Shown here: positions 25,353 to 51,177 of the stretch, in pieces
How positions within the stretch are numbered: position 1 is the first letter of the stretch
How the letters are laid out: each line of letters starts with the position of its first letter
Assembly (NCBI GenBank): GCA_026989935.1
Contig: JALSIN010000305.1
Coordinates: 1 to 56,334, forward strand
DNA length: 56,334 nt
Source of the DNA: Polyangiaceae bacterium
GTDB taxonomy: Bacteria > Myxococcota_A > Polyangia > Nannocystales > Nannocystaceae
Direction: 5' to 3'
Program-made: the position numbers and the translations under genes
Notes under the pieces: model-generated
What the model saw: the letters and a program-made list of their open reading frames with translations, nothing else
Database searches by the model: none
Told to the model about the DNA's origin: nothing

Positions 25353-26274
25353 CGGGATCCGGGGCCGGTGGAGGGTTGTCTCCACCGGCTTCGAGCGGCA
25401 CCATCGATCCCCGTCGGCCCGCGGGCAGCGCCGGTTTCGATGGTGGTCGAGGCGTGATGGACGCCGCGGGGACGTCGGGGACCTGCGGTTCGGTCGTCGG
25501 ATCGGCGCTGGCGGGTCGTGTCTCAGGCGGGGAGGGCAGGTGCAGGTGTGTCGGCACCGGATGGGCGAGGCTCGCGAGAAGGCTGCGGCGGATCGAGGCG
25601 GCGTCGCGTTCGAGTTCGTCGAGCAGCCGGCGCACGAACGTGCGGCGGTGGTCCGGCTGGCTGCCGCACAGGTCGCAGGGGACGATGGGGACGGCAAGGC
25701 CGGCCGCATAGGCCGCCACCTCGCGCTCGAAGGCCCATGCGAGCGGCCGGATCACCACGTGGCGGCCGTCGTCGCTGACGAGCCGCGGGGGCATGGCCTT
25801 GATCTGACCGGCGAAGAACTGATTCATCAGGAGCGTCTCGATGGCGTCGTCGGCGTGGTGGCCCAGCGCGATCTTGGTGGCCCCGATCTCACCGGCCACG
25901 CGGTAGAGGATCCCGCGCCGCAGACGGCTGCAGAGGGGACAGGGGGTGGCGCCTTCGGGGATCTTGGCCCGGACCACCGACAGCGTGTCCTGGAAGACGA
26001 TGCGATGGGCGAACCCGTGGGCCGCAAAGGCATCGGCCAGGGCGCCGGCATCGAAGCCAGGGTGTCCCTGGTCCACCGTGACGGCGGTCAACTCGAACGA
26101 AAACGGCAGGTGTCGCCGGTAGGCGCGCAGCAGGAACAAAAGCGCCCAGGAATCCTTGCCCCCGGAGCAGGCCACCAGGACGTGGTCGCCCGGCTCGATG
26201 AGACGGAAGGCGCGGTTGAGGCGCCGGATCCGGGCCAGGAGGCGGCGCTCGAGCCGTGCGTGGGAGGCGGTCAT
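25312..26274 (-). CDS. ttcA: tRNA 2-thiocytidine(32) synthetase (PP-loop ATPase)
   Basis: VACSGGKDS PP-loop, CPLCSRLRRG and ALGHHADD motifs. The ATG overlaps the dtd stop (ATGA). A Pro-rich ~80-aa C-terminal tail of doubtful significance overlaps the 3' end of the convergent VWA gene. Confidence 0.88.
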   Translation of the reverse strand: MTASHARLERRLLARIRRLNRAFRLIEPGDHVLVACSGGKDSWALLFLLRAYRRHLPFSFELTAVTVDQGHPGFDAGALADAFAAHGFAHRIVFQDTLSVVRAKIPEGATPCPLCSRLRRGILYRVAGEIGATKIALGHHADDAIETLLMNQFFAGQIKAMPPRLVSDDGRHVVIRPLAWAFEREVAAYAAGLAVPIVPCDLCGSQPDHRRTFVRRLLDELERDAASIRRSLLASLAHPVPTHLHLPSPPETRPASADPTTEPQVPDVPAASITPRPPSKPALPAGRRGSMVPLEAGGDNPPPAPDPVNRAARSRRRSYR

Positions 26275-26744
26275 TGGATCCGTCCGTCCCTGGCGTCGAG
26301 AACGAAGGTGACCGGGCCGTCGTTTTCGCTCGTCACGATCATCCGGGCGCCGAAGACGCCCGTCGCCACGGGCACGCCGCGGGCCGCCAGCGCGCGGGCC
26401 ACGGCTTCGTACAGCGGACGGGCCGGTTCGGGGTCCATGGCCCCATCGAACGACGGGCGTCGCCCCTTGCGCACGCTGCCGGCCAGGGTGAACTGGCTTA
26501 CCACGAGGCAGGCGCCGCCGGCGTCCAGGACGCTGCGGTCCATGGGACGCCGCCGACCGTCGGGCGCCGCCGGGCCCGGGAAGATCCGCAGGCCGGCCAC
26601 CTTGTCGGCGGTCGCCACGGCGTCGGCCTGTGTGTCCCCGCGGGCCACCCCGATGTACAACAACAGGCCGCGGTCGATGGCGCCCGCGACGGCGCCGTCC
26701 ACCTCGACCCGGGCCGAGCGTACGCGCTGGACGACCGTTCGCAT
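26271..26744 (-). CDS. dtd: D-aminoacyl-tRNA deacylase
   Basis: MRTVVQRV...VSQFTL...GRRPSF...NDGPVTF signature sequence. I set the start at the internal ATG matching the conserved N-terminus. Confidence 0.92.
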   Translation of the reverse strand: MRTVVQRVRSARVEVDGAVAGAIDRGLLLYIGVARGDTQADAVATADKVAGLRIFPGPAAPDGRRRPMDRSVLDAGGACLVVSQFTLAGSVRKGRRPSFDGAMDPEPARPLYEAVARALAARGVPVATGVFGARMIVTSENDGPVTFVLDARDGRIQ

Positions 26745-26828
26745 GGCCGCCGATGCTACCAGTTCGGCCGCGCTGCGGGGCCCCATGCGCCGCCCCCGCC
26801 CGCGCTGCTACGCTGCCGGCGCCCGCCC

Positions 26829-27473
26829 GTGCCCAGCGCTCCTCCATCGGCCCGCGACGAGGACTTCGCCTCGAAGTACACGAAGGCCGGGCCCGTCGCC
26901 TCGTGGCTCATCGACCGCTTCTTCGATGGCGTGGCGGACCTCGCGTGCCGCGTGGCGCCGGCCGAGGTGCTCGAGGTCGGATGCGGGGAGGGGTTCAGCA
27001 CGACCCGCCTGGCCCGCATCCTCGGGCCCCGGGTGCAGCTGGCCGCCGGCGACGTGGATCCGCGCCTCGCAGCGCGCGCACGGGCCCGCAACCCCGGCGT
27101 CCCGATCGCCGTGGAGTCGGCCTACGATCTCCGTCGGCCGGACGGATCGTTCGATCTGGTCGTGTGTCTGGAGGTGCTCGAACACCTCGACGACCCCGCG
27201 CGGGCCCTGGCCGAGCTGTGCCGCGTGGCCCGGCGCGCGGTGTTGGTCTCCGTGCCGCGCGAACCCCTCTGGCGCGTGCTCAACGTCGCCCGCGGCCGGT
27301 ACCTGCGCGCCGCGGGGAACACGCCCGGCCACGTGCAGCACTGGTCGCGCCGCGGATTCGTGCGGTTCGTAGGGACGCAGGCCGAGGTGCTGGCGGTTCG
27401 CACCCCGGTCCCGTGGACGCAGGTGCTCGCCCGCCCGCGGCTTGCGGCGGGCGCCTCGGAGCCGGTAGCGTAG
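26829..27473 (+). CDS. class I SAM-dependent methyltransferase
   Basis: VLEVGCGEGFST is motif I, and FDLVVCLEVLEHLDDP is the post-II/III region. The start is inferred as the in-frame GTG at 26829, since there is no ATG. Confidence 0.75.
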   Translation: MPSAPPSARDEDFASKYTKAGPVASWLIDRFFDGVADLACRVAPAEVLEVGCGEGFSTTRLARILGPRVQLAAGDVDPRLAARARARNPGVPIAVESAYDLRRPDGSFDLVVCLEVLEHLDDPARALAELCRVARRAVLVSVPREPLWRVLNVARGRYLRAAGNTPGHVQHWSRRGFVRFVGTQAEVLAVRTPVPWTQVLARPRLAAGASEPVA

Positions 27474-27494
27474 GCCCCACGCGAAGGAGCCGCT

Positions 27495-29444
<1,950 letters not shown>

Positions 29445-29518
29445 TCCTGGACCTGCCCACCCCCTCGACACTGCCCGAGCCCACCGGTGTCGTCCTCGAC
29501 GGCGCCCCGGTTCCGCGC

Positions 29519-30640
29519 GTGCTGGGACGGGCCGGGCGCAAGGGGGGGCCGGTGCTGGTGGTGTTCGGCGGGATCCACGGCAACGAACCGGCCGGCGTCC
29601 GGGCGATCCGCCGGGTGTGGCCGGAGATCGAGCGTCGGTCCGACAGCCTCCGCGGGGAGGTGGTGGCGCTGGCCGGCAACCGCGCGGCGCTGCGGGATGG
29701 GGTGCGGTTCGTCAAGCGTGACCTCAACCGCCGCTGGACCTTCGAGGGGATCGAGCGCGTGCGCTCGGCGGACCCGGCCGGACTCGCCGACGAGGATCTC
29801 GAGCAGCGCGCGATCCTCGAACGGCTCGAACCCGTGCTGGCGCACGCCCACGAACCCGTGACCGTCCTGGACCTGCACAGCATGTCGGGGACGGGCGCGC
29901 CCTTTTGCTGCATGTCGGACACCTTGCGCAACCTCCGCGTCGGGCTCGGGTTGCCGGTGCCGCTGATCCTGGGGCTCGAGGAGGTCATCGACGGCACGAT
30001 GCTCGGTTACTTGAGCGACGTGGGCCACCGGGGGATCGCCTTCGAGGGCGGCCGGCACGACGATCCGGCCACCGTGGACCATCACGAGGCGGCGATCTGG
30101 CTGGTCGTCGCGCGCACCGGCCTGCTGCCCGAGGACCAGGTCCCGGGGCTCGCCGAGCACCGGGCGCGCCTGCGCGCGGCCTGTCGGGACCTGCCCCGGG
30201 TCGTGGAGGTGCGGTACCGGCACGTGGTCCGGGAGGAGGACGACTTCGAGATGGCCCCGGGGTTTCGCAACTTTGACCCGGTGCGCAAGGGCCAGCGGCT
30301 CGCCACCGACGGGCGCGGCCCGGTGCGGGCGCCGATGTCCGGCCGGCTGCTCCTGCCGCGCTACCAGGGACAGGGGGAGGACGGCTTCTTCATCGGCCGC
30401 GTGGTGCCGCGTCCGGTCCTTCGCCTGTCGCGCGCGATCCGCCGCCTCGGGCTGGACGACGAGGTGGCGAGGCTGCCGTTCGTTACGCGCGATCCCGTCG
30501 ATCCGGATCGGCTCGTGGTCCCCCGGTCGTATCTGGTCGGCCCCGTCGTGGACCTCCTTCACCTGTGCGGTTACCGTCGGCGTCTGGACGCTGGAGACCG
30601 GGTCGTGTTCGTGCGACGCCGGCAGGACCGCTTGCTCTGA
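29519..30640 (+). CDS. succinylglutamate desuccinylase/aspartoacylase (AstE/AspA, M14-like) family deacylase
   Basis: VFGGIHGNEPAG is the zinc-ligand motif region, and VTVLDLHS is also present. GTG start; the N-terminus is short and uncertain. Confidence 0.78.
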   Translation: MLGRAGRKGGPVLVVFGGIHGNEPAGVRAIRRVWPEIERRSDSLRGEVVALAGNRAALRDGVRFVKRDLNRRWTFEGIERVRSADPAGLADEDLEQRAILERLEPVLAHAHEPVTVLDLHSMSGTGAPFCCMSDTLRNLRVGLGLPVPLILGLEEVIDGTMLGYLSDVGHRGIAFEGGRHDDPATVDHHEAAIWLVVARTGLLPEDQVPGLAEHRARLRAACRDLPRVVEVRYRHVVREEDDFEMAPGFRNFDPVRKGQRLATDGRGPVRAPMSGRLLLPRYQGQGEDGFFIGRVVPRPVLRLSRAIRRLGLDDEVARLPFVTRDPVDPDRLVVPRSYLVGPVVDLLHLCGYRRRLDAGDRVVFVRRRQDRLL

Positions 30641-30646
30641 ATCGCC

Positions 30647-32527
30647 GTGACCCGCGACGCGCACGTCGTTTCGTCCACACCGGCCCCCTCACGATGGTGG
30701 GCCGAAAATGCGGGCTTGGTGTTCGACCTTTCGAGCTACGCCATGTTCGCCGTCGCGACCTTGATCGCCGTGGCCACGTTTCGGGACTACGGGATCACGT
30801 GGGACGAGTCCTGGCACCACACCTACGGCAACTACATCTTGGAGTGGTTTCGCACCGGCTTTCGTGACCGCTCGGCCCTGAGCTACCGCGGGGATTACCT
30901 CTACGGTGGGGCGTTCGACGCACTCGCGGCATTGTTCGCCCGCCTGGTGCCGCTTCCTTGGTTCGAGGCGGTGCATCTGTTCGGGGCCCTCGTCGGGGTG
31001 CTCGGGCTCGTGGCGGTGTGGCGGCTCGGGCGGGTGCTCGCGGGCCCGGCGGCGGGGTTTGCGGCCACCGCGCTGTTGGCGGCGACGAGCGTCTACCACG
31101 GGCACACCTTCAACAATCCCAAGGACGTCCCGTTCGCGGTGGGCTACACGTTCGCGATCGCCGAACTCGTCGAGGTCGTGCGGTCGTTCCCGGTGGTCTC
31201 GCGCGGTCGATGGGTGCGGCTGGGGCTCGCCTGTGGCGCGGCGATGAGCGTGCGCATCGGGGGGATGCTCGTGTTGTGCTACTTGCTCGCGGCGGTGGTC
31301 GGCTTCACGGCGTGGGTGTTCGTGACCACGCGCAACCAGGACCTCGCCGAGGGGGTGTTCGTGCGCCTGTTTCGCGGCTTTTTGGGCGTGTGGGCCCTGG
31401 GCTGGGCGGTCATGCTCGCGTTTTGGCCCTGGGCCCAGCTCGACCCGGTTCGGCGGCCGTTCTTTGCGCTCGGGCGGATGACGCGCTTCAACCTGCACAC
31501 GCGAAAGATGCCTTTTGGCGACGAGGAGATCGCGACCTACGCCGTACCCTGGGACTACCTACCGCGTTACTTTCTGTTCAAACTGCCGGAGGTGTTGCTG
31601 CTGTTGGCAGCGATGGGGGCCGTGTTCGGGGTGCGTGCGATGGTGCGGCGGTGGAAGGCCCGTCGGGGCGGAGCGGACCTGGTGGCCGCGGGCTGTGTGC
31701 TCCTCGCGATCGCCTTCCCGCCGGTCTGGGCCGTCGTCGTGCGCTCGAACCTCTACGACGGGCTGCGACACTTCCTGTTCCTCGTCCCGATGCTCGCGGG
31801 GGTCGGTGGCGTCGCCGTGGTGGCGCTCGCCCGCCGGTTGCAGGCTGCCGCCCAGGTTCCGCCCGTGGCGCTGGCCGCCGTCTTCGTGGCATGGTGCGGC
31901 CGCGAGGTGGTCGTGATGGCCGACCTCCACCCGCACGAGTACGTCTACTTCAATCGGATCGCTGGCGGGCTACCAGGGGTCCTCGAACGCTACGACACGG
32001 ACTACTACGGCAACGGCTACCGCGAGGCCTTCGATCGGTTGCGCGACGAACTTTGGCGCACGGATCCCGAAGGCGTGTTGTCGCGCCGTTACCGCGTGGG
32101 AGGATGCATCCCCCGTTTCGTCGCCGAGGAGTACCTGCGCAGCGTGCTCGTCTGGCGCGAGCGCAACGACAAGCGGCCGCTCGACTTCTTTCTCGGCTAC
32201 CAGCGCAACAAGTGCTTCCAGCGGCACCGTCACCGGCCGATCTTCACGCAAGTGGAACGGCAGGGGGCCCCGATCGTCCTCGTGCGGGACATGCGGCGCG
32301 TGCGGCCGAAGGCGCCGGGCGAGCGCAAGGACGCCGGGGCGAATCGTCCGGCCCCGCGCCCATCGATCCGGCCGGCCCCGCAAAAGCCCGGGCGCGCCGG
32401 GAAGGGGCCGTCGCAGCCGGCCGGGCCCGTCTCCGGGCGTCCGAAGGCGGGCGCCGGGCGGGCCCCGGGAGGCGCCGGGCGAGCAGGAGCCGGCGAAGGA
32501 GCCGTGGGGGTTTCACCGCGGCCGTGA
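30647..32527 (+). CDS. GT-C fold polytopic glycosyltransferase (GT39/GT83, PMT_2/ArnT-like)
   Basis: At least 10 hydrophobic helices. An acidic WDESWHH motif lies in the first loop after TM1, comparable to the DE motif of Pmt/ArnT-type enzymes. A soluble C-terminal domain is followed by a Pro/Gly/Ala tail. It starts 6 nt after the previous stop. Confidence 0.8.
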   Translation: MTRDAHVVSSTPAPSRWWAENAGLVFDLSSYAMFAVATLIAVATFRDYGITWDESWHHTYGNYILEWFRTGFRDRSALSYRGDYLYGGAFDALAALFARLVPLPWFEAVHLFGALVGVLGLVAVWRLGRVLAGPAAGFAATALLAATSVYHGHTFNNPKDVPFAVGYTFAIAELVEVVRSFPVVSRGRWVRLGLACGAAMSVRIGGMLVLCYLLAAVVGFTAWVFVTTRNQDLAEGVFVRLFRGFLGVWALGWAVMLAFWPWAQLDPVRRPFFALGRMTRFNLHTRKMPFGDEEIATYAVPWDYLPRYFLFKLPEVLLLLAAMGAVFGVRAMVRRWKARRGGADLVAAGCVLLAIAFPPVWAVVVRSNLYDGLRHFLFLVPMLAGVGGVAVVALARRLQAAAQVPPVALAAVFVAWCGREVVVMADLHPHEYVYFNRIAGGLPGVLERYDTDYYGNGYREAFDRLRDELWRTDPEGVLSRRYRVGGCIPRFVAEEYLRSVLVWRERNDKRPLDFFLGYQRNKCFQRHRHRPIFTQVERQGAPIVLVRDMRRVRPKAPGERKDAGANRPAPRPSIRPAPQKPGRAGKGPSQPAGPVSGRPKAGAGRAPGGAGRAGAGEGAVGVSPRP

Positions 32528-32534
32528 ATCTGGC

Positions 32535-33365
32535 ATGGGAAGCGCGGTGCCCGAGACCTCCCCCCTCGAAGAAGCCCATCGCGCGCTGTCTGCGGCGCAG
32601 GGGATCCTCCTCGTGGAGGGGGCCTCGCCGCGGGAGGCGGCGCGGTACCTCGAGCGCGCGCGGGCGCTGGCCGAGCAGGCGGGCCTTTCGCCCCTCCCGC
32701 CGCCGCCCCCGGAGGCGGACGCCGCGGCGCTCGCGGCCCACGCACGCGCGCTGGCCGTGGGGATCGAGCGGGCGCGCGCGACCCCGCAGGTACGGGGGAG
32801 CCGGCGGCGGCGGCGCCTGCGCCGGGTCGGGGCCTTCCTGGCCTGGACCAGTCCCATCTGGGCGTATGCACTTCTGACCCCGTTTTCGTGGCGCGAGGGC
32901 CCCTGGCGCAGCGAGTTCTTTCCCACCAAGAGCTTCGAGGGGGAGTCCAAGGTGCGAAGGCACAGCGACATCGTCTTCAAGTGGAAGAAGGCCGCGCCGT
33001 TCAAATCGTTTCCAGAAGACGGGTTTTCGGCGCGGTTCGACACCTGCTTGGTGCTCGACGAGCCCGCCGAGCCGGTCTTCCGCCTGTCCTCGGACGACGG
33101 CTCGCGCCTGTTCGTCGATGGGCTGCTCGTGGTGGACAACTGGGGCAGCCACTCCGTGCGAGTGCGCTCGCAGTCCATCGCCCTCGATCCGGGGGTGCAC
33201 CACCTGCGGGTGGAGTACTTCGAGCACACCGGTCCCGCCGAGATCGAGCTCGATGCTTCGTTCGACGGTGACCGCCCGCGGGCGATCCCGGCCCGCCTGC
33301 TGCGGTATCCGGGAAACGAGCCGGATCCGGAGGACCCGTGCCGTGCCGTGCGCGAAGACCCGTAG
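32535..33365 (+). CDS. single-pass membrane protein with a PA14 domain
   Basis: TM helix VGAFLAWTSPIWAYALL. PA14-like sequence: WRSEFFPTKSFEG...IVFKW...DGFSARFDTCLVL...FRLSSDDGSRLFVDGLLVVDNWG...GVHHLRVEYFEHTGPAEIEL. Confidence 0.7.
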   Translation: MGSAVPETSPLEEAHRALSAAQGILLVEGASPREAARYLERARALAEQAGLSPLPPPPPEADAAALAAHARALAVGIERARATPQVRGSRRRRRLRRVGAFLAWTSPIWAYALLTPFSWREGPWRSEFFPTKSFEGESKVRRHSDIVFKWKKAAPFKSFPEDGFSARFDTCLVLDEPAEPVFRLSSDDGSRLFVDGLLVVDNWGSHSVRVRSQSIALDPGVHHLRVEYFEHTGPAEIELDASFDGDRPRAIPARLLRYPGNEPDPEDPCRAVREDP

Positions 33366-33396
33366 CCGCACGGGCAGGATTTGGTAGCCTGCGCGC

Positions 33397-34422
33397 GTGA
33401 CGGCATCGAACGCCCCCGAAAAAGCCGCCGGCGAGCCCGAGATCTCGGTCGTCGTCCCGCTTTTCAACGAGGTGGAGAGCCTCCCGATCTTACACGAGCA
33501 GCTCACGCAGAGCCTCGCCGGGATGGGCCGTCCCTACGAGATCGTCTTCGTGGACGACGGCAGCACGGACGGGTCCACCGACCGCTTGCGCGCCATCGCG
33601 GCGGCCGACCCGCACGTGCACGTGGTCTTCTTCCGGCGCAACTTCGGCAAGTCCCCGGCGCTCAACGCCGGCTTCGAGCGCGTCCGGGGCCGCATCGTGC
33701 TGACCCTCGACGCCGACCTGCAAGACGACCCGGCGCTCATTCCCCAGTTCGTCGAGCGAATCGAGGCGGGGGCGGACCTCGTGTCCGGCTGGAAGAAAAA
33801 ACGTCACGATCCGCTGGGCAAGACCCTGCCATCGAAGGTCTTCAACTTCGTGGTGCGCAAGCTTTCGGGCGTTCCGCTGCGAGACTTCAACTGTGGATTC
33901 AAGGCCTACCGCATCGAGTGCATCCGCGAGCTTTCGGTCTACGGCGGATTCCACCGCTTCTTGCCGGTGCTCGCCGGCGAACGCGGGTTTCGGGTCGAGG
34001 AACTCGTGGTGCGCCATCGCCCGCGCGAACACGGGGTCAGCAAGTTCGGCGTGCGCCGCTTCTTCGACGGATTCCTGGACCTCCTTACGGTGTTGCTCGT
34101 CACGCGCTACCGCACGCGCCCGCTGCACTTCTTCGGCATCCCGGGCAGCTTCCTGATGGCGGCGGGCCTGGGCCTGTTGGCCTATCTGTCCGTCCTGTGG
34201 GGCGTGGGGCAGCCCATCGGAACCCGCCCCCTGCTGACTTTGGGCGTCCTTTGCACCATCACGGGCTTTCAGTTCATCGGGCTCGGGCTCGTGGCCGAAC
34301 TGCTCGTGCGGACGACGATTCGGTCGAGCGAGGTATTCTCGATCCGCGAGGAGATCCTCCCGCGCGGGTTCGAGGCGGCGCAACTGGGGGCGGCGCCCCC
34401 CACGCCACCGCCCGGCGCCTGA
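33397..34422 (+). CDS. polyprenol-phosphate glycosyltransferase (GT2; DPM1/Ppm1/ArnC/GtrB-like)
   Basis: ISVVVPLFNE, VFVDDGSTDGS, LDADLQDDP, and two C-terminal TM helices typical of GtrB/ArnC-type enzymes. GTG start. Confidence 0.88.
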   Translation: MTASNAPEKAAGEPEISVVVPLFNEVESLPILHEQLTQSLAGMGRPYEIVFVDDGSTDGSTDRLRAIAAADPHVHVVFFRRNFGKSPALNAGFERVRGRIVLTLDADLQDDPALIPQFVERIEAGADLVSGWKKKRHDPLGKTLPSKVFNFVVRKLSGVPLRDFNCGFKAYRIECIRELSVYGGFHRFLPVLAGERGFRVEELVVRHRPREHGVSKFGVRRFFDGFLDLLTVLLVTRYRTRPLHFFGIPGSFLMAAGLGLLAYLSVLWGVGQPIGTRPLLTLGVLCTITGFQFIGLGLVAELLVRTTIRSSEVFSIREEILPRGFEAAQLGAAPPTPPPGA

Positions 34423-34470
34423 CGGAGCCCGCCGCTTGCGGGGAGGAGGGGCCGGTGCCAGGCTAAGGGC

Positions 34471-34977
34471 ATGACCAGGAACCTTCTTCGCATGACCCTC
34501 CTTGGCATCGTCTTCGCAACCGGGGCTTGCTCCGGGGACGACGGCGGCGGTGGGGGCACCGGCACCGGCAGCACGTCGGCTGCCTCCACGAGCTCCACCA
34601 GCACGAGTTCGTCGTCTTCCACGTCCACCTCCACCTCCACGACGAACGGTTCGACGACCACCGGTCCCACCACCGCAACCGACACCGGGACGGGCGATAC
34701 CGGGACGGGCGACACGGGCACGGGCGACACGGGCACCGGCGGCGGCACGACCGGGGGCGTCTCCCCCTGCGAGCAGTTCTGCGGCGACTACTTCGCCACC
34801 TGCGGAAACACGAACTTCAACGACTACGGAACCGAGGCCGACTGCGTGACCGCCTGCGAGGGCTGGACCGGCGACCAATTCGGCTGCCGCGAGATGCACC
34901 TCGGGCTCGTCCAGGATCCGGCCAACGACGGCCACTGCGGCCACGCCAGTCTCGACGGCGGCAACGTCTGCCCCTAG
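34471..34977 (+). CDS. small lipoprotein with a Ser/Thr/Gly-rich linker and a Cys-rich C-terminal domain
   Basis: Lipobox VFATGAC-SGDD. About 75 aa are almost exclusively S/T/G, including 4x DTGTG. The C-terminal domain has 8 Cys (CEQFCGDYFATCGN...CVTACEGW...CREMH...CGHASLDGGNVCP). Confidence 0.8.
   Translation: MTRNLLRMTLLGIVFATGACSGDDGGGGGTGTGSTSAASTSSTSTSSSSSTSTSTSTTNGSTTTGPTTATDTGTGDTGTGDTGTGDTGTGGGTTGGVSPCEQFCGDYFATCGNTNFNDYGTEADCVTACEGWTGDQFGCREMHLGLVQDPANDGHCGHASLDGGNVCP
34681..34740 (+). repeat. 4 x 15-nt in-frame tandem repeat encoding (DTGTG)4
   Basis: Read directly: gacaccgggacgggc / gataccgggacgggc / gacacgggcacgggc / gacacgggcaccggc. Confidence 0.9.
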
Positions 34978-35040
34978 GCGGGCTGGCTTCCACGTGCGCG
35001 GCCCAGGGCGTCTTCGGGCGCCTTGCGCCGCGCGCCTTCG

Positions 35041-37428
35041 TCAGGCGGCCGCCGTGTCCTCGGACGAAACGAGCGCGATCGCGAGCACCTCGTCGATGTG
35101 TTCGACATAGTGCAGCGACAGGTCGTCGCGGACGCGCGGCGGCAGGTCCACCTCGTCCTTGCGATTGCCGGCCGGGAGGATGATCGTGCGGATCCCCGCG
35201 CGGTGTGCGGCGACCAGCTTCTCCCGGATCCCCCCCACCGGGAGCACGCGCCCGCGCAGGGTCACCTCGCCGGTCATGGCGACGTCGGGCCGGACGGGAC
35301 GCCCCGAAAGCGCGGACACCAGGGCCGTTGTGACCGTCACGCCCGCGCTGGGGCCGTCCTTGGGCACGGCGCCTTTGGGCACGTGGACATGGATGTCGTG
35401 GCGGGCGAAGAGCCCCTCGTCGATCCCGAACGAGGTCGCGCGACTGCGTACGAGGCTCGTGGCCGTCTGCCCCGACTCGCGCATCACCTCACCCAGCCGC
35501 CCGGTCAGACGGATCGTGCCGTCGCCCGGCGTCGCCAGGGCCTCGACGAACAGCAGCGAGCCGCCGGCCGGGCTCCAGCCGAGCCCCGCCACGAGCCCCA
35601 CGGGCGCGTCGTCCTCCGCCCGCTCGGGGTGGAAGCGGGGCGGGCCGAGGATCCGAAGGACGTCGTCCTCACGCACCGATCGCTCGAACGGGCGCCCTTC
35701 GGCGAGGGCAACCGCGCGATCGCGCAAGATCGCCTCCAGGGCGCGGCCGAGGTCGCGCACGCCGGCCTCCCGCGTGTACCGCTCGACGAGAAGCGCCAGG
35801 ACCTCGTCGTCCACGGTCACGGCGTCAGCCGAAAGGCCGTGGTCGGTCGAAAGTGCAGGCCACAGGTGGTCCCGGGCGATGGCGATCTTGTCCTCGATCG
35901 TGTAACCGGTCATCTCCAGGATCTCGAGCCGGTCGCGCAGCACGGGTGGGATCCGATAAGGGTCGTTCGCCGTCGCGATGAACAACACCCCGGACAGGTC
36001 GTAGGGAAGCCCCAGGTAGTGGTCTTCGAAGGCGTCGTTCTGCTCCGGGTCGAGGACTTCGAGCAGGGCGCCGGCCGGGTCCCCGCGCAGGTCCGGCGCG
36101 ACCAGTTTGTCGATCTCGTCGAGCAGGATCACCGGATTCACGGTGCCGGCGCGCTTCATCGCCTGCAGGATCCGGCCGGGTAGTGCGCCGACGTACGTGC
36201 GGCGGTGGCCGCGGATCTCGGCGTCGTCGCGCACGCCACCCAGGCTGATCCGCGTGAACTTGCGCCCCATCGCCTCGGCGATGGAACGGGCGATGGAGGT
36301 CTTGCCCACGCCCGGCGGCCCGGCCAGGCACAGAATCGGGCCGCGGATCGACGGGGCGAGCTTGCGCACACTCAAGAACTCGACGACCCGCTTCTTCGCC
36401 CGGGCAAGGCCGTGGTGGCGCGCTTCGAGCAGGTGCCGGACGGCCTCGAGATCCAGCCGGTCCTCGGTTCGCTCGTCCCCCCACGGCAGGTCGGCGATCC
36501 ACTCCAGGTAGGTGCGCGCGACCTGGGCCTCGTTGCTTTGGGGGTGCATCCGTTCGAGACGGCGAACCTCCCGCTCGACCACCCCCCGCACCTCCGGGGG
36601 CAGGTCCTTTTGGCTCAGGCGCTTGGCGAGCCTGCGGTGGGGGTCGTCGCGATCGGAGATCTGACCGAGTTCCGCCTGGATGGCGCGGAGCTTGTGTCGC
36701 AACAGCGCGCGCTGCTCGTGCCGGGACAGGTGTTCCCGCACGTGTTCGTCGAGTTCGCGTTGGACCCGTAACGCGCTGATCGCCCGGCTGGTGGCCTCCA
36801 ACATGCGCCGCAGGCGCTCGGGAACGCTGGCCTCCTCCAGCAGCGAAAGGCGAGCCTGTGGTGCAAGGTCCACGTGGGCGGCCGCCAGGTCGGCGACCCG
36901 GCCCGGGCGTGTCTCGCTGGCGATGGCCGCCGCGGCTCGCTTGCGCCGGGACGTGTGCGCCTTCGCGGGGAGAGACTCGTCATAGGTCCGCAGCAGGTCC
37001 TGCAGCGCGCCCGCCATGGCGTAGGCGAGGGCGGGGTCACCGATCTTCTCGTGCAGCGTGGCGAAGCGTACCGATGCGAAACCATCGTCCGGGATCCATT
37101 CGAGCAGGTGGACTCGCCCGATGCCCCGCACGATGGCCGTGGCGCGCCCGGGCAGGCCGTCCATCACGCGAAGTAGCTCCGCGAGCACCCCCACGCGACA
37201 GACGTCGTCGAGGCCGGGGTCCTCGGTGCCGGCGTTCTTTTGCGTGGCGACGACGATCCGGGGGGGGCGCCCTTCGCTCGATGCCAGGACTCGGGCCGCG
37301 CGGACGGCCCGCAAGGAGGCGTCGCGGCCGAGCTCGACGGGCAGGATGACCCCCGGAAAGAGCACCATGTTCCGCAGGGGCAGGGCGGGGAGGGTGTTCC
37401 GGGACGGGTCCGAAGGTTCCGGCGCCAT
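35041..37428 (-). CDS. lon: ATP-dependent Lon protease (LonA)
   Basis: LON N-domain (LPALPLRNMVLFPGVILPVELGR), Walker A GPPGVGKTS, and the catalytic PKDGPSAG motif. I set the start at ATG 37428. Confidence 0.95.
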   Translation of the reverse strand: MAPEPSDPSRNTLPALPLRNMVLFPGVILPVELGRDASLRAVRAARVLASSEGRPPRIVVATQKNAGTEDPGLDDVCRVGVLAELLRVMDGLPGRATAIVRGIGRVHLLEWIPDDGFASVRFATLHEKIGDPALAYAMAGALQDLLRTYDESLPAKAHTSRRKRAAAAIASETRPGRVADLAAAHVDLAPQARLSLLEEASVPERLRRMLEATSRAISALRVQRELDEHVREHLSRHEQRALLRHKLRAIQAELGQISDRDDPHRRLAKRLSQKDLPPEVRGVVEREVRRLERMHPQSNEAQVARTYLEWIADLPWGDERTEDRLDLEAVRHLLEARHHGLARAKKRVVEFLSVRKLAPSIRGPILCLAGPPGVGKTSIARSIAEAMGRKFTRISLGGVRDDAEIRGHRRTYVGALPGRILQAMKRAGTVNPVILLDEIDKLVAPDLRGDPAGALLEVLDPEQNDAFEDHYLGLPYDLSGVLFIATANDPYRIPPVLRDRLEILEMTGYTIEDKIAIARDHLWPALSTDHGLSADAVTVDDEVLALLVERYTREAGVRDLGRALEAILRDRAVALAEGRPFERSVREDDVLRILGPPRFHPERAEDDAPVGLVAGLGWSPAGGSLLFVEALATPGDGTIRLTGRLGEVMRESGQTATSLVRSRATSFGIDEGLFARHDIHVHVPKGAVPKDGPSAGVTVTTALVSALSGRPVRPDVAMTGEVTLRGRVLPVGGIREKLVAAHRAGIRTIILPAGNRKDEVDLPPRVRDDLSLHYVEHIDEVLAIALVSSEDTAAA

Positions 37429-37493: not shown

Positions 37494-39389
37494 GTGCGGA
37501 CCGCTGACCATGCGTTCGACGCGCCGGCGTCGTCGTGGGCCGCCGCCCTGGGGCTCGCTGTGGGCGTGGCCATCGCGCCGGTGCTGGGCCTCGTTCCCTC
37601 CGTGGCGAGCGCGCTGCTGGCCTGGTGGGGGGGGGGCGTAGGGCTGCGCGGGGCGCGAAGATCCGGCAGCGTCGGAGGTGAGATCGCCGCAGCGGCCGCG
37701 ACCGTGGGGCTTGCCGTCGTCCTCGGCGGTGTCGCCGCCCGCCTGACCGGTGGTGTCCTCGTCGAGATCCCGGCCGCGATCTGGGGGGCGGCGGCTGCGC
37801 TCGCCGCCACCTGGGTCACGCCGGGTCGCCCGGCCATGCGGGGGGGGCTGGCGCTCGCCGCCCTGCTGGCCGGAGCGTTGGCAGGGGACGCCTTCGAACG
37901 CGAGGGGCCCGCGGCCCGGGGCCGCGCCGTGTCGGGGCCGATCTACGGCATCCACCCCTTCCAGACGACGGCGATCCGGATCGACGGCTACGGCCCGTTC
38001 GACATCCCCCTCAACGACTACGTCGAGCCCGACGCGAACCGCGGCTACGGGCCGGAGGAACTGGCCGACGCACTCGCGCTGGCCCTGCACGCCATCGCGC
38101 GCACGCACTTTGCCGACGGGCCGGCGCGGGCCCGCGCGGCGTTCGGCGGGGCGGTCGTGCGCCCGCTGCGGACGCCCGCCGTGCGCGAACGGATCGACCG
38201 CGACCCCGAGTTCGCCACGCAGCCGCGCTTCGAGGTGGTCTCCGGCACGTACGGCCCCGGTTCGAGCGTCTCGTTCGTCTGCCCGGGCCATCGCAACGAC
38301 CCGAGGGGCTTTTCGCCCACGAGCCCGATGGTCAAGATGTGTCCCGACAAGTACGCCACGGAGGCGAGCGCCGGGCTCGGCGTGACCGGTCGCTGGGCGG
38401 GGTACGCCGAGTTTCGCGGGAGCGCCCGCACGTCCCTGGCGGCGCTCGTCGGGGCCACGCGCAGCGACGACGAGGCCGGCCGTCGCGTCGTTCGGGCCGA
38501 GCGGCTCGTCTGGGCGCTCGCGGTGGGCTTCGTGATCGCCGTCGTTGCGGGCCGTCGTGGGCTGGCGGCCAGGGCGGCCCCGCTGGGGACCGCGGCGGGA
38601 TGGGGGATCGTGGGGCTCGTCGCCGTTGCGGCCGCCGGCTCGCGCTCGCTCCGGCTCGTGGCTGTCCAGCCCTTCTCCGGGAGCGACCCCGGTGTGATCG
38701 CCGCAGGGGTGGGGGTGCTCGCCGCCCTCGTTGGATCGGCCGGGTTCTCGGATCCACCGCGGGCCGGCGCCCGGCCTCGCTGGCGTGCCTGGTGGATGCC
38801 GGGGTTGCTCGTGACGGTCGCGGCCCTGTTCGCCGCGATCGATCCGCGCGCCGTGGACTGGCTGTCGCCGGGACTTGCCGCGGTTGAGGGCAACGCGCCG
38901 GGTGTGCCTCTCGTTCGCGGTCTGGCTGGCCGCGTCGCCTCGGCGCTCGGGATCGCGGTGCAGCCGGTCGAGGCAGTGGCCGGCAGCCTCGTCGTGGCCG
39001 TCTTCGTGGGCGCAGCCGCGACCGCCGGGCGCCAGGCGGTGCGGCGGCTGCGGCCGGCGGGGGCCGCGGGCGTGGCCTTCCTGTGCAGCGGTTTGGGGCT
39101 GGCGGCCGCGCTCCTGGCCGTGTTCGCCCCGCGCGCCGGCGGCGGCGCCGTCCTCGTCCCGGTGGTCGGTGGGGTGGGCGTGGCCCTCGTGGCGGCCGGT
39201 GACCGACGCGAAGGGGTGCGTGCGGGGATCGTTCGAGCGCTCCTGGCCATCCTCGCGCTCGCGGGCGTGGGGGCTCCGCTGCTGTCCGCCAGCGCCACGA
39301 GCCCCGTCACGCTCGCCGGGATCGGGCTTGGCCTCGTGCTCGTGCTGTCGGTCGCGTGGACCCGGCGGCCGACCGGCGACGGCGGTTGA
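37494..39389 (+). CDS. polytopic membrane protein of unknown function with a central soluble domain
   Basis: There are many Ala/Gly/Val/Leu helices on both sides of a ~200-aa hydrophilic domain (GPIYGIHPFQTTAIRIDGYGPFDIPLNDYVEPDANRGYGPEE...FVCPGHRNDPRGF...MCPDKY). The overlapping antisense ORFs are Arg/Pro noise. GTG start. Confidence 0.6.
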   Translation: MRTADHAFDAPASSWAAALGLAVGVAIAPVLGLVPSVASALLAWWGGGVGLRGARRSGSVGGEIAAAAATVGLAVVLGGVAARLTGGVLVEIPAAIWGAAAALAATWVTPGRPAMRGGLALAALLAGALAGDAFEREGPAARGRAVSGPIYGIHPFQTTAIRIDGYGPFDIPLNDYVEPDANRGYGPEELADALALALHAIARTHFADGPARARAAFGGAVVRPLRTPAVRERIDRDPEFATQPRFEVVSGTYGPGSSVSFVCPGHRNDPRGFSPTSPMVKMCPDKYATEASAGLGVTGRWAGYAEFRGSARTSLAALVGATRSDDEAGRRVVRAERLVWALAVGFVIAVVAGRRGLAARAAPLGTAAGWGIVGLVAVAAAGSRSLRLVAVQPFSGSDPGVIAAGVGVLAALVGSAGFSDPPRAGARPRWRAWWMPGLLVTVAALFAAIDPRAVDWLSPGLAAVEGNAPGVPLVRGLAGRVASALGIAVQPVEAVAGSLVVAVFVGAAATAGRQAVRRLRPAGAAGVAFLCSGLGLAAALLAVFAPRAGGGAVLVPVVGGVGVALVAAGDRREGVRAGIVRALLAILALAGVGAPLLSASATSPVTLAGIGLGLVLVLSVAWTRRPTGDGG

Positions 39390-39445
39390 GGGGGTGTCCC
39401 GGCGCCGGTATGATGCCGCACCCCTCGAACGAGGGTGAACCCTCC

Positions 39446-40723
39446 ATGACCGCGCTCGCTCGTCTCCCGTTCGTGCACCGACTCCTCGCCTCCGCCCTGG
39501 CCGGCTGCCTGGCGCTCTCCGCCGTACCGGCGCGCGCGGCCGAATCTGCACCGGCCGAGGCCACGCCCGCCGAGTCGGCGAAGGCCCCGGCCACGGTCTC
39601 CGGGACCGTGGCGCTGCTGCGCTTCGATGGCCCGTCCGCGGCCTCCGACATGCGATCGGGCCTCAAGGATGCCCTCTCCGCCGCCGGGTTCACGGTCAAG
39701 AGCGTGGCGCTCGACGCCAAGGGGGCGGCCAAGAAGGCCAAGTGTCGCGGCGGTGAGATGGACGAGGCGTGTCTCGAACGGCTCGGCAAGTGGCTCAACA
39801 AGTCGTCCAAGACCGCGGCGGACTTCGTGGTCTTTGGCGGCGTGGTGCCGGGCGAGCCGGCTCCGAAGGCGCGGATCGTGCTCTACGACGTCGGCCAGGG
39901 CAAGACGGTCCAGGTCGTCGAGGGCGTGCTCGACGGAGACGACCTCATCTTGCCCATCGTGATGCCCAAGGCCGCGGCGGCGGCGCTGGCCCACCACCTC
40001 GTGCCGCCGGTGCCGACGCCGGAGGAAGAAAAGATCCTCGCGACCCTCGACGAACCCGAGAAGACCGCCGAGGAGATCGAGGCCGAGAAGCGCAAGATCG
40101 CCGAAGCCGAGGCCCAGGCGGGGCAGGTCGGCGCGGGGGACGTGGACGTGTCCGGGATCCGTTACGACCTCAAGGCAGACTTCAAGGACTACTGCCGCAA
40201 CGGTCCCCGCAAGAAGCGTGCGTCCAGGGACGAGGACATCGATCCGCGCCCGTCGTGCAAGATGGGGCCGTTTTGGGGCTACTGGCAACCGCGGGCCTGG
40301 GCGTTTTTGACGCTGACGGCCGCCGGGCTCGTGACCACCGGGGTGATGTACGGGCTGGCCCTCGGGGCGCGCAAGCCCTACAAGGACGCGCTCTCGGCGG
40401 TGCAGGACTACGAAGCCATGGTCGGGGGAGACCCCTCGCGCAACCCGAACCTCGCCTGCTCGGGTGGGACCTGCTACCAGGATCTCGCCCTCGAAGTGGC
40501 CAAAAACGGCGCCCGGATGCGCAAGTTCGCCCTGGGCGGGGACGTGGCGCTGGGGGTCACGGTCCTGCTCGCCGGCGTGTTGGGGATCATCATCTACCAG
40601 GACCGCAAGTACGCAAGGGACAAACTCACCGAGGAAAAACGCCTTCGGGCCCTTTCGGGGGTCCGGGTGGCGCCGGCCCTCGGCAAGGGCTTCGCCGGCG
40701 GCATGCTCGGCTTCCGATTCTAG
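39446..40723 (+). CDS. secreted protein with a C-terminal two-helix anchor and a Gly-rich ...GFRF terminus
   Basis: Signal peptide MTALARLPFVHRLLASALAGCLALSAVPARA-AES. Coiled/charged region EEIEAEKRKIAEAEAQ. Two hydrophobic helices. It ends LGKGFAGGMLGFRF. The start could instead be ATG 39410. Confidence 0.7.
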   Translation: MTALARLPFVHRLLASALAGCLALSAVPARAAESAPAEATPAESAKAPATVSGTVALLRFDGPSAASDMRSGLKDALSAAGFTVKSVALDAKGAAKKAKCRGGEMDEACLERLGKWLNKSSKTAADFVVFGGVVPGEPAPKARIVLYDVGQGKTVQVVEGVLDGDDLILPIVMPKAAAAALAHHLVPPVPTPEEEKILATLDEPEKTAEEIEAEKRKIAEAEAQAGQVGAGDVDVSGIRYDLKADFKDYCRNGPRKKRASRDEDIDPRPSCKMGPFWGYWQPRAWAFLTLTAAGLVTTGVMYGLALGARKPYKDALSAVQDYEAMVGGDPSRNPNLACSGGTCYQDLALEVAKNGARMRKFALGGDVALGVTVLLAGVLGIIIYQDRKYARDKLTEEKRLRALSGVRVAPALGKGFAGGMLGFRF

Positions 40724-42005: not shown

Positions 42006-42212
42006 GGGCGTAAGTGTACTGCGGCGGGCCGACCGGGGCCCGCCCGTCCTGCGCCCGCTGCACTCGATCGGGGCCGTCGGCCATCCGGGGACGGCATCGC
42101 CGCGGTGCCAGGGGCCGCGGGCGGTGGAGGCTGGGGCGGCGTGCACGTATCCGGTCGCGCAAGCGCCGAGCGCAGGGGGGACCGGTGCGGCTGGGCCCGT
42201 GCCGGGGATCGG

Positions 42213-51074: not shown

Positions 51075-51149
51075 TGGTGACCCCACCGGGAATCGAACCC
51101 GGGTTTTTGGGATGAGAACCCAACGTCCTAACCGCTAGACTATGGGGCC
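51075..51149 (-). tRNA. tRNA-Glu (anticodon CUC), CCA encoded
   Basis: The reverse complement reads GGCCCCATAGTCTAGCGGTTAGGACGTTGGGTTCTCATCCCAAAAACCCGGGTTCGATTCCCGGTGGGGTCA+CCA. It folds as a cloverleaf with a 7-bp acceptor stem, anticodon loop TTCTCAT and T-loop TTCGATT. Confidence 0.93.
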
Positions 51150-51177
51150 GAAAGCGCCCCCTTGCTCCGGGGCGCGG

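What the first reader, a model, noticed from the sequence alone, without database searches (positions are those of the whole stretch)
30647..34977. Candidate Pmt/Ppm-style protein O-glycosylation cassette with its likely substrate encoded next door
Four co-directional genes are separated by 7, 31 and 48 nt. The first is a polytopic GT-C glycosyltransferase (GT39/ArnT-like, acidic WDESWHH loop motif after TM1). The second is a single-pass PA14 (carbohydrate-binding type) protein. The third is a GT2 polyprenol-phosphate sugar synthase (DPM1/Ppm1/ArnC/GtrB-like, with two C-terminal TMs). The fourth is a 168-aa lipoprotein whose mature N-terminus is ~75 residues of almost pure Ser/Thr/Gly. In Actinobacteria, Ppm1 makes polyprenol-P-mannose and the GT39 enzyme Pmt O-mannosylates Ser/Thr-rich linkers of Sec-exported lipoproteins. 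In Gram-negatives the same enzyme pair logic modifies lipid A (ArnC/ArnT) or O-antigen (GtrB/Gtr). I am not aware of a described Pmt-type protein O-glycosylation system in Myxococcota. At least four other lipoproteins in this window carry similar G/S/T linkers and could also be substrates. The PA14 protein inserted between the two transferases is not part of any canonical version of these pathways.
Basis: partly seen in the sequence, partly recalled or inferred. Interest (0 to 1): 0.72.

Follow-up and report, generated by a model that had tools for sequence, protein, structure and literature searches.

The report
Lipid-linked sugar transferase with lectin partner
The four genes are real, but the conserved unit is a membrane sugar-transferase paired with a sugar-binding PA14 protein and a lipid-sugar synthase; it is not a Pmt-type system, and the neighbouring lipoprotein looks like a bystander rather than a dedicated substrate.

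Summary
All four ORFs, their 7/31/48-nt gaps and their domain calls are confirmed.

**What does not hold:**
- The GT-C enzyme is not GT39 (Pmt) or GT83 (ArnT). It matches only the generic PMT_2 model, never PF02366, which E. coli ArnT hits at 211 bits. It lacks the ArnT motifs, and by fold it is no closer to Pmt than to PglB, ArnT or AftA.
- The GT2 is a polyprenyl-phosphate glycosyltransferase closest to ArnC (33% identity), not to DPM1/Ppm1.
- The Ser/Thr/Gly-linker lipoprotein recurs only in the closest relative. Similar linkers occur on other lipoproteins in the window and are not enriched near the GT-C elsewhere.

**What is conserved:**
- GT-C plus PA14 is adjacent in 28 of 31 Myxococcota-group loci, often with overlapping stop and start codons.
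- The pair duplicated and co-diverged as a unit (r=0.94).
- In orthologous loci the module is methyltransferase, GT-C, PA14, GT2, sometimes within a longer array containing an MBOAT and an epimerase.
- Alphaproteobacterial relatives sit in Arn-like amino-sugar clusters.

**Best reading:** a periplasmic Und-P-sugar glycosylation module whose acceptor is more likely an envelope glycan than a protein. The acceptor remains untested.

The parts
26829..27473 (+). Class I SAM-dependent methyltransferase. It is the orthologue of the methyltransferase that sits directly upstream of the GT-C in other Nannocystaceae-type genomes. Here the GCS2-CBS and AstE-like genes separate it from the GT-C.
   Evidence: Pfam Methyltransf_11/25/23. 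39-43% identity over the full length to L088 9394-9993 and L081 9402-10004. Likely GTG start at 26829.
30647..32527 (+). Polytopic GT-C-fold glycosyltransferase of a distinct family that matches only PMT_2. Invariant motifs include W52-D53-E54 in the first outer loop, N157-P158-K159-D160, and Y449..T451-D452-Y453-Y454 just after the last TM helix. It has a periplasmic C-terminal domain (about 428-550) and a disordered basic tail.
32535..33365 (+). Single-pass membrane protein. It has a cytoplasmic helical N-terminus, an Arg-rich stretch followed by a TM helix (about 84-114), and a periplasmic PA14 domain (124-242) with two invariant Cys (C171, C269). It is the conserved partner of the GT-C.
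33397..34422 (+). Polyprenyl-phosphate glycosyltransferase (GT2, ArnC/GtrB type). It has a DADLQD metal/nucleotide motif, conserved R136 and R210, and two C-terminal TM helices. It is the inferred maker of the Und-P-sugar donor.
   Evidence: motif definitions from PMC12690121.
34471..34977 (+). Lineage-specific lipoprotein: signal peptide with Cys20, a 76-residue linker that is 86% S/T/G, and an 8-Cys C-terminal domain. It is probably a bystander and at most one of many possible substrates.

Best explanation
The locus encodes an extracytoplasmic glycosylation module that uses a lipid-linked monosaccharide.

**Step 1 (family membership shown, activity inferred).** The GT2 (33397-34422) transfers a sugar from a nucleotide sugar to undecaprenyl phosphate at the cytoplasmic face. 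The sugar is unknown.

**Step 2 (inferred).** The lipid-linked sugar is flipped to the periplasmic face. No flippase gene is present in the window.

**Step 3 (fold and motifs shown, activity inferred).** The GT-C enzyme (30647-32527) transfers the sugar to an acceptor on the periplasmic face, probably with the invariant D53/E54 as the catalytic pair.

**Step 4 (partnership shown by synteny and co-divergence, role inferred).** The single-pass PA14 protein (32535-33365) is a dedicated lectin-like subunit. It holds or selects the acceptor.

**Step 5 (orthology shown, role unknown).** The methyltransferase at 26829-27473 belongs to the ancestral module.

I think the acceptor is most likely a sugar residue of an envelope glycan, such as an exopolysaccharide, capsule or the LPS carbohydrate. 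The adjacent lipoprotein is a neighbour by chance.
For: **The GT2 is a polyprenyl-phosphate glycosyltransferase.**
- It aligns over its full length with ArnC structures (8e-51), GtrB (4e-27) and DPMS (9e-18).
- It carries the DADLQD motif and the conserved Arg residues (PMC12690121).

**The GT-C fold is established.** PglB, ArnT, AftA and STT3 all match at E about 1e-6.

**GT-C and PA14 form a unit.**
- A PA14 gene lies directly downstream in 31 of 80 related loci, including 28 of the 31 Myxococcota-group loci. Of the three without it, two are cut by contig ends and in L011 the GT2 follows the GT-C directly.
- Stop and start codons overlap in L081-L085 and L088.
- Pairwise identities of GT-C and PA14 partners correlate at r=0.94. 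Paralogous pairs match across genera rather than within a genome.
- Paraliomyxa carries three polytopic-GT/PA14 pairs with one GT2 and one methyltransferase.

**Pointers to a glycan acceptor.**
- The PA14 domain is closest to the polysaccharide-sensing RsgI PA14 and to glycosidase and adhesin sugar-binding PA14 domains.
- GT-C enzymes that act on polysaccharides use carbohydrate-binding modules for their acceptor (EmbC, AftD, GT136; PMC11127046).
- In three genomes the module ends a co-directional array of a second GT2, a methyltransferase, an NAD epimerase/dehydratase, an MBOAT and unknown proteins.
- Alphaproteobacterial relatives (34-38% identity) sit in clusters with a DegT aminotransferase, an epimerase/dehydratase, a GT2 and a small hydrophobic ORF.

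**The lipoprotein is not conserved with the module**.
Against: - No acceptor is identified, and no glycan-synthesis genes lie in this 56-kb window.
- No flippase is found here.
- A lectin-type domain does not by itself exclude a protein acceptor. Eukaryotic PMTs carry MIR domains (my own knowledge).
- The best Foldseek hit is PglB, a protein glycosyltransferase, although its margin over ArnT is negligible.
- S/T-rich linkers are frequent in this organism's lipoproteins. Such regions are glycosylated by GT2 plus GT-C pairs in streptococci (PMC12041528).
- The MBOAT/epimerase array could be a merely adjacent cluster.
Confidence: 0.5

Rival explanations
1. General protein O-glycosylation. The GT2 and GT-C pair glycosylates Ser/Thr-rich disordered linkers of many exported lipoproteins, with the PA14 subunit acting as a lectin that promotes dense glycosylation. 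The adjacent lipoprotein would be one of many substrates, not a dedicated one.
For: - At least three lipoproteins in the window have S/T/G linkers after the lipid-modified Cys.
- GtrB with PgtC2, and PgfS with PgfM1, do exactly this in streptococci (PMC12041528).
- The top fold hit is PglB.
- A D-E pair in the first outer loop is also a PMT feature (my own knowledge).
Against: - The enzyme belongs to neither GT39 nor the YfhO or Pgf families.
- S/T-linker lipoproteins are not enriched beside the GT-C. Eight were found in 665 kb of Myxococcota loci, fewer than the window's own density.
- Alphaproteobacterial relatives lie in amino-sugar, Arn-like clusters.
- Disordered linkers are a general lipoprotein feature (El Rayes 2021, cited in PMC12041528).
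Confidence: 0.2
2. ArnT/Rgt-type modification of lipid A or the inner LPS core. One Und-P-sugar synthase would feed one or several GT-C enzymes that decorate lipid A phosphates or core sugars.
For: - The GT2 is closest to ArnC.
- The Pfam model that matches is annotated by one source as RgtA/B/C/D-like.
- Several GT-C paralogues share one GT2, as with RgtE and RgtD/F (PMC7663294).
- Alphaproteobacterial relatives have an aminotransferase and a dehydratase, like arnB and arnA.
Against: - PF02366 does not match, and the ArnT motif YFEKP is absent in 27 of 27 members (RYA occurs by chance in two) (PMC5377068).
- hhalign against E. coli ArnT gives a probability of 0.08%.
- There is no NCBIfam ArnT hit.
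- A carbohydrate-binding partner is not known for any lipid A transferase.
- The window has no arnA, arnB or arnD homologues detected next to the module.
Confidence: 0.12
3. The PA14 protein is a trans-membrane polysaccharide sensor, like an RsgI anti-sigma factor, that regulates the transferase genes rather than taking part in catalysis.
For: - The closest solved relatives are the PA14 sensor domains of RsgI anti-sigma factors.
- The topology is the same: cytoplasmic N-terminus, one TM helix, outer PA14 domain.
Against: - The cytoplasmic part is poorly conserved, with three invariant positions, and matches no anti-sigma family.
- No sigma factor gene is adjacent. The nearest ECF sigma is 7 kb away.
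- Every GT-C paralogue has its own co-diverging PA14 gene, often translationally coupled.
Confidence: 0.05

Closest known systems
Three-component extracytoplasmic glycosylation systems (polyprenyl-phosphate GT + flippase + GT-C): GtrA/GtrB/GtrX O-antigen glucosylation, and the GT136 pentofuranose system (PMC11127046)
   Same: - A GT2 or other synthase makes a lipid-linked monosaccharide, and a GT-C uses it outside the cytoplasm.
- A carbohydrate-binding module contacts the glycan acceptor in GT136, EmbC and AftD.
   Different: - The sugar-binding module here is a separate, co-evolving single-pass PA14 protein, not a domain of the GT-C.
- No flippase gene is adjacent.
- The GT-C is a different sequence family.
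- The acceptor is unknown.
ArnC/ArnT (lipid A L-Ara4N) and RgtE/RgtA-D,F (LPS GalA)
   Same: - The GT2 is 33% identical to E. coli ArnC over its full length.
- One synthase can serve several GT-C paralogues.
- Alphaproteobacterial relatives have amino-sugar genes.
   Different: - The GT-C lacks PF02366 and the YFEKP motif of ArnT, and has no conserved RYA motif.
- The GT2 scores 174 bits against a 529-bit cut-off for the ArnC equivalog.
- A PA14 partner and a methyltransferase are present.
Ppm1/Pmt (GT39) protein O-mannosylation of Actinobacteria
   Same: - The lipid-linked sugar logic is the same.
- There is an acidic D-E pair in the first outer loop.
- S/T-rich lipoprotein linkers exist in the organism.
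   Different: - There is no PF02366 or PMT_4TMC match.
- Pmt1/2 is a distant fold hit.
- The GT2 is closer to ArnC and GtrB than to DPMS.
- No conserved substrate gene is present.
GtrB/PgtC2 and PgfS/PgfM1 glycosylation of Ser/Thr-rich disordered regions in streptococci (PMC12041528)
   Same: - A GT2 plus GT-C pair acts on extracytoplasmic S/T-rich disordered regions, including that of the lipoprotein PrsA.
- PgfS is the second-best NCBIfam hit of the GT2 (122 bits).
   Different: - Those GT-C enzymes are YfhO- or Pgf-type.
- They have no PA14 partner.
- They are from Gram-positive hosts.
- Nothing here ties the enzyme to a protein acceptor.

Membership tests
GT39 protein O-mannosyltransferase (Pmt) | Match to Pfam PF02366 (PMT) and the C-terminal PMT_4TMC domain | tested here: not met
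   Only PF13231 matches, at 30 bits. No PF02366 or PMT_4TMC match in any of 27 family members, even at E<=1.
GT39 protein O-mannosyltransferase (Pmt) | Acidic Asp-Glu pair in the first extracytoplasmic loop | tested here: met
   W52-D53-E54 is invariant in 27 sequences and lies just after TM1 in the model. The feature is shared with other GT-C families, so it does not discriminate.
GT39 protein O-mannosyltransferase (Pmt) | Closest structural neighbours are PMTs | tested here: not met
   Pmt4 ranks 25th and Pmt1/2 31st, the latter at E=9e-4 with 271 aligned columns. PglB, ArnT and AftA rank first at about 1e-6.
GT39 protein O-mannosyltransferase (Pmt) | Partner is a GDP-mannose:polyprenol-phosphate mannosyltransferase (Ppm1/DPM1 type) | tested here: inconclusive
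   The GT2 scores 176 bits against ArnC, 98 against GtrB and 68 against P. furiosus DPMS. Sugar specificity cannot be read from sequence.
GT39 protein O-mannosyltransferase (Pmt) | O-mannosylated Ser/Thr-rich substrates | not testable with these tools
   This needs glycoproteomics.
ArnT (GT83) | PF02366 match, as in E. coli ArnT | tested here: not met
   E. coli ArnT scores 211 bits on PF02366. This family scores nothing.
ArnT (GT83) | RYA and YFEKP motifs in the first periplasmic loop (PMC5377068) | tested here: not met
   YFEKP is absent in 27 of 27 members. RYA is absent in 25 of 27 and not conserved.
ArnT (GT83) | Detectable sequence relationship to ArnT | tested here: not met
   A profile search of the PDB finds no GT-C at E<=10. 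hhalign against E. coli ArnT gives a probability of 0.08%. There is no NCBIfam hit.
Polyprenyl-phosphate glycosyltransferase (ArnC/GtrB/DPMS-type GT2) | GT-A domain with a DADLQ(N/D/H) motif and conserved phosphate-binding Arg residues | tested here: met
   PF00535 at 106 bits. DADLQD is present. R136 and R210 align with ArnC R131 and R205.
Polyprenyl-phosphate glycosyltransferase (ArnC/GtrB/DPMS-type GT2) | Two C-terminal transmembrane helices | tested here: met
   The alignment with ArnC runs through residues 236-300 of the query, covering both TM helices.
ArnC equivalog (Und-P-Ara4FN synthase) | NCBIfam NF007986 score above the curated cut-off | tested here: not met
   174 bits against a cut-off of 529.
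PA14 domain | Pfam PF07691 above the gathering score, and a PA14 fold | tested here: met
   57 bits against a cut-off of 24. The model has pLDDT 93, and its best fold hits are RsgI PA14, glycosidase PA14 and adhesin PA14 domains.
Three-component extracytoplasmic glycosylation system | A dedicated flippase gene (GtrA, ArnE/F, MATE or PF03706 type) in the locus | tested here: not met
   tblastn with the small ORF of L037 and the PF03706 protein of L088 finds nothing in the window. A PF03706 gene flanks the array in L085, L087 and L088.
Bacterial lipoprotein | Signal peptide ending in a lipobox Cys | tested here: met
   MTRNLLRMTLLGIVFATGA-C20 has a basic N-region and a hydrophobic core. The L001 orthologue has LLFAPG-C. 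No dedicated predictor was available.

The most novel reading that the evidence does not exclude
The GT-C/PA14 pairs are a previously undescribed two-subunit class of periplasmic glycosyltransferase: a catalytic GT-C plus a separate lectin subunit. In marine myxobacteria they would O-glycosylate the Ser/Thr-rich linkers of lipoproteins. That would be a Gram-negative counterpart of the actinobacterial Pmt and streptococcal PgtC2/Pgf systems, built from an unrelated GT-C family.
Probability: 0.17. Interest if true: 0.7.

Novelty: new variant of a known kind. Interest (0 to 1): 0.42.

Why it matters
- If the PA14 protein is an obligatory acceptor-binding subunit, this would be a GT-C enzyme whose substrate selection is delegated to a separate, co-evolving lectin. 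That would offer a handle for finding the acceptor by pull-down.
- The GT-C family is large and carries only generic 'GT39/ArnT family' labels. At least 530 confirmed loci across Myxococcota, Alphaproteobacteria, Acidobacteriota and other phyla were found in the species-level genome set. Showing that it is neither GT39 nor GT83 corrects those labels.
- It points to an uncharacterised envelope modification in Nannocystaceae, a group known for natural products but with almost no envelope biochemistry.

Tried and rejected
1. **P0115 as a natural GT-C-PA14 fusion.** This 994-aa protein looked like a fusion. Reading the three frames of L018 shows that the GT-C frame runs through an Arg-rich, out-of-frame-looking stretch into the PA14 start. 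Another frame holds the usual K/P/A/T-rich tail followed by a stop. I treat it as a probable frameshift or assembly artefact. None of 108 PA14-partner homologues is a fusion.
2. **Sequence placement against solved GT-Cs.** phmmer and a 27-sequence profile found nothing. hhalign against E. coli ArnT found nothing. Only fold comparison works, and it does not separate PglB, ArnT and AftA.
3. **Homologues of the lipoprotein's 8-Cys domain.** None shared enough words in the protein collection. No Pfam or NCBIfam family matches.
4. **Promoter and terminator scan of 26000-35200.** It was no better than shuffled sequence and uninformative in this 72% GC genome.
5. **Methyltransferase as a cross-phylum marker.** The window's enzyme is orthologous only to the Nannocystaceae MT199 type. 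The alphaproteobacterial and Azospirillum methyltransferases share only general class I similarity.
6. **Literature searches.** Searches for a described PA14-partnered GT-C, or for a myxobacterial O-glycosylation system of this type, found none. This is absence in an open-access library, not proof.
7. **Rfam and tRNA scans.** They showed nothing in or near the locus.


Full report
**Observation**

The four ORFs exist exactly as described:
- 30647-32527 (626 aa)
- 32535-33365 (276 aa)
- 33397-34422 (341 aa)
- 34471-34977 (168 aa)

All are on the + strand and separated by 7, 31 and 48 nt. In this 72% GC window the third-position GC of all four is 0.87-0.89, the signature of real genes. An antisense ORF at 34269-34748 is a mirror image of the lipoprotein's low-complexity repeats. 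The lipoprotein reading is supported by an orthologue in the closest relative with a signal peptide, linker and Cys-rich domain.

The four genes are the 3' end of a seven-gene co-directional array with gaps of 21/74/6/7/31/48 nt:
- methyltransferase (26829-27473)
- GCS2-CBS protein (27495-29444)
- AstE/AspA-like protein (29519-30640)
- GT-C, PA14, GT2 and lipoprotein

Close spacing is therefore not evidence that the lipoprotein belongs to the transferases.

**What the genes are**

*GT-C.* It hits only Pfam PMT_2 (PF13231, 30 bits) and no NCBIfam model.
- Its AF2 model (pLDDT 80, pTM 0.82) matches only GT-C enzymes: PglB 7.8e-7, ArnT 1.1e-6, AftA 1.7e-6, then STT3, AglB, DPY19 and ALG9.
- Pmt4 ranks 25th and Pmt1/2 31st, the latter with 271 aligned columns.
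- TM-scores are about 0.4 throughout, so no solved enzyme is a close relative.
- A 27-sequence family profile finds no solved GT-C by sequence.
- None of the 27 members hits PF02366 or PMT_4TMC. E. coli ArnT hits PF02366 at 211 bits.
- The ArnT motif YFEKP (PMC5377068) is absent in all 27 members and RYA is not conserved. hhalign against E. coli ArnT is null.
- The family has its own invariant motifs. These include D47-x-G-x-T-W-D-E after TM1, N-N-P-K-D-x-P-F-A, W-P-W, Y-D-G-x-R-H, and Y449-x-T-D-Y-Y just after the last TM helix.

It is therefore a distinct GT-C family. 'GT39/ArnT-like' is true only at the fold level.

*GT2.* It is a polyprenyl-phosphate glycosyltransferase.
- It aligns over its full length with ArnC structures (8e-51), GtrB (4e-27) and DPMS (9e-18).
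- It is 33% identical to E. coli ArnC, including both C-terminal TM helices.
- It has the DADLQD motif, and R136/R210 are equivalent to ArnC R131/R205 (PMC12690121).
- It is far below the ArnC equivalog cut-off (174 against 529 bits), so the sugar is unknown.

*PA14 protein.* The model has pLDDT 93.
- It shows cytoplasmic helices, one long Arg-rich/TM helix and a PA14 sandwich.
- Its nearest structures are the polysaccharide-sensing PA14 of RsgI anti-sigma factors, glycosidase PA14 inserts and sugar-binding adhesin PA14 domains.
- Two Cys (C171, C269) are invariant. This is consistent with a periplasmic disulfide, which is my inference.

**Evidence from relatives**

The GT-C family is large. 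Scanning species-level genomes with two of its motifs gave at least 599 stretches, of which 530 were confirmed. They are mostly Nannocystaceae-type Myxococcota at 40-70% identity, and Alphaproteobacteria (Stellaceae, Azospirillum, Niveispirillum), Acidobacteriota, Latescibacterota and others at 32-38%.

In the 80 fetched loci:
- **PA14.** A PA14 gene lies directly downstream of the GT-C in 31 loci. Of the 31 Myxococcota-group loci, 28 have it. Two of the other three are cut by contig ends, and in L011 the GT2 follows directly.
- **Translational coupling.** Stop and start codons overlap in six annotated cases.
- **Paraliomyxa miuraensis.** The locus reads PA14<-DUF2079 | GT2->GT-C->PA14->methyltransferase->GT-C->PA14. 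That is three polytopic-transferase/PA14 pairs with one GT2.
- **Co-divergence.** PA14 partners track their own GT-C (r=0.94 over 28 pairs). The PA14 next to paralogue P0102 is 64% identical to the PA14 next to P0101 in another genus, but only 32% identical to the other PA14 in its own genome. The pair is therefore the unit of inheritance.
- **GT2.** A GT2 at 66% identity or more to the window's lies in 10 of the 31 loci. Those loci also share the GCS2-CBS, D-Tyr-deacylase and PP-loop neighbours.
- **Core module.** In these loci the core is methyltransferase, GT-C, PA14, GT2. The window's methyltransferase is the orthologue (39-43% identity), displaced by a local rearrangement.
- **Longer array.** In three genomes the module ends a longer co-directional array of GT2, methyltransferase, NAD epimerase/dehydratase, MBOAT and unknown proteins. 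A PF03706 flippase-like gene flanks it. None of those extra genes is in the window.
- **Alphaproteobacteria.** The GT-C sits with a methyltransferase, a GT2, a small hydrophobic ORF, a DegT aminotransferase and an epimerase/dehydratase. This is an Arn-like amino-sugar layout without PA14.

**The lipoprotein**

- Its C-terminal domain is found only in L001, the closest relative. It has no detectable homologue in the large protein collection.
- After the GT2, relatives have either nothing (L008, L029, L081, L085) or an unrelated somatomedin-B-like Cys-rich lipoprotein without an S/T linker (L088).
- In the window, at least two other lipoproteins carry S/T/G linkers: 1616-3694 on the - strand and 11093-12364 on the + strand. 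The linker is therefore a habit of this genome.
- With about three such genes in 56 kb, I estimate that chance adjacency to any given cluster is of the order of 10%.
- Across 665 kb of Myxococcota loci centred on the GT-C, only eight such lipoproteins were found. That is fewer per kb than in the window itself, although my filter misses some.

**Mechanism**

*Shown:*
- a polyprenyl-phosphate GT and a GT-C-fold enzyme are encoded together in orthologous loci;
- the GT-C has an invariant acidic pair in its first outer loop;
- a periplasmic PA14 protein is its conserved, co-diverging neighbour.

*Inferred:*
- the GT2 loads a sugar on Und-P;
- an unlinked flippase moves it;
- the GT-C transfers it to a periplasmic acceptor;
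- the PA14 subunit binds that acceptor.

I favour a glycan acceptor (confidence 0.5) for four reasons:
- carbohydrate-binding modules are the known acceptor-binding devices of polysaccharide-directed GT-Cs (PMC11127046);
- the module is embedded in sugar-modification arrays in relatives;
- several transferase/PA14 pairs share one donor synthase;
- distant relatives lie in amino-sugar clusters.

The rivals are:
- general O-glycosylation of S/T-rich linkers (0.2), which has a real precedent in streptococci (PMC12041528);
- ArnT/Rgt-like lipid A or core modification (0.12);
- a sensor role for PA14 (0.05).

**Comparison and novelty**

The system works like the three-component lipid-linked-monosaccharide pathways (Gtr, Arn, Rgt, GT136, Pgf). 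It is not a member of GT39 or GT83 by any feature tested. Its distinctive trait is the separate PA14 subunit that duplicates with the enzyme.

I found no description of this in the searchable literature. I rate it a new variant of a known kind, with moderate interest (0.42). The striking 'substrate next door' element does not survive. The conserved GT-C/PA14 pairing is a concrete, testable lead in a poorly studied group.

Noticed in passing
window 26829-27473 (+): A class I SAM methyltransferase orthologous to the one directly upstream of the GT-C in other Nannocystaceae-type genomes. Here it is separated from the GT-C by the GCS2-CBS and AstE-like genes, which indicates a local rearrangement of the ancestral methyltransferase, GT-C, PA14, GT2 module.
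   Followed up: yes
L081 2016-5023 (-); also L008, L010, L018, L025, L028, L029, L087: A second kind of polytopic membrane protein (DUF2079, about 690-750 aa) recurs near the GT-C in 8 of 31 Myxococcota loci. In Paraliomyxa (L006/L081), L010 and L029 it has its own PA14 partner gene. PA14 pairing therefore extends beyond one transferase family.
   Followed up: partly
L037 6374-13989 (and about 30 other alphaproteobacterial loci): Relatives of the GT-C at 34-38% identity lie in a conserved cluster without PA14. The order is an unknown 450-aa protein, GT-C, methyltransferase, GT2 and a small hydrophobic ORF. A DegT aminotransferase and an NAD epimerase/dehydratase lie on the opposite strand. This Arn-like amino-sugar pathway appears uncharacterised.
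   Followed up: partly
window 31991-32011 (GT-C residues 449-455): An invariant Y-x-T-D-Y-Y-(G/A) motif lies a few residues after the last TM helix. This is about the same position as the WWDYG acceptor-binding motif of PglB/STT3 (from memory), and PglB is the top fold hit.
   Followed up: no
L018 9300-10500 (protein P0115): An annotated 994-aa 'GT-C-PA14 fusion' in a Nannocystaceae MAG is probably a frameshift or read-through artefact, not a real fusion.
   Followed up: yes
window 34680-34741: A 15-nt tandem repeat (4.1 copies, 89% matches) encodes the (D-T-G-T-G)x4 part of the lipoprotein linker. The orthologue in L001 has the same repeat plus a longer (T-S)n run, so the linker length is evolving by repeat slippage.
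   Followed up: partly
window 1616-3694 (-), 11093-12364 (+), 40815-42146 (-): Two further lipoproteins have S/T/G-rich linkers directly after the lipobox Cys. One further protein has an internal S/T/G tract.
   Followed up: partly
window 37494-39389 (+): A 631-aa, Ala/Gly-rich polytopic membrane ORF with a central soluble domain and no Pfam hit lies just beyond the Lon protease gene. It failed my strict third-position GC filter, so its coding status is uncertain.
   Followed up: no
window 39567-39643 (+): ARAGORN calls a tRNA-Arg(CCG) that Rfam does not report at gathering threshold. It lies inside a high-GC3 ORF (39356-40723), so it may be a false positive. The tRNA-Glu and tRNA-Gln at 51075-51248 are supported by both tools.
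   Followed up: no
L083 6963-15649: In Enhygromyxa salina SWB007 a paralogous GT-C/PA14 pair is preceded by two trypsin-like protease genes, the nearer only 22 nt upstream. It is followed by a second PMT_2 GT-C and an unknown 268-aa protein. This context differs from the window's.
   Followed up: no
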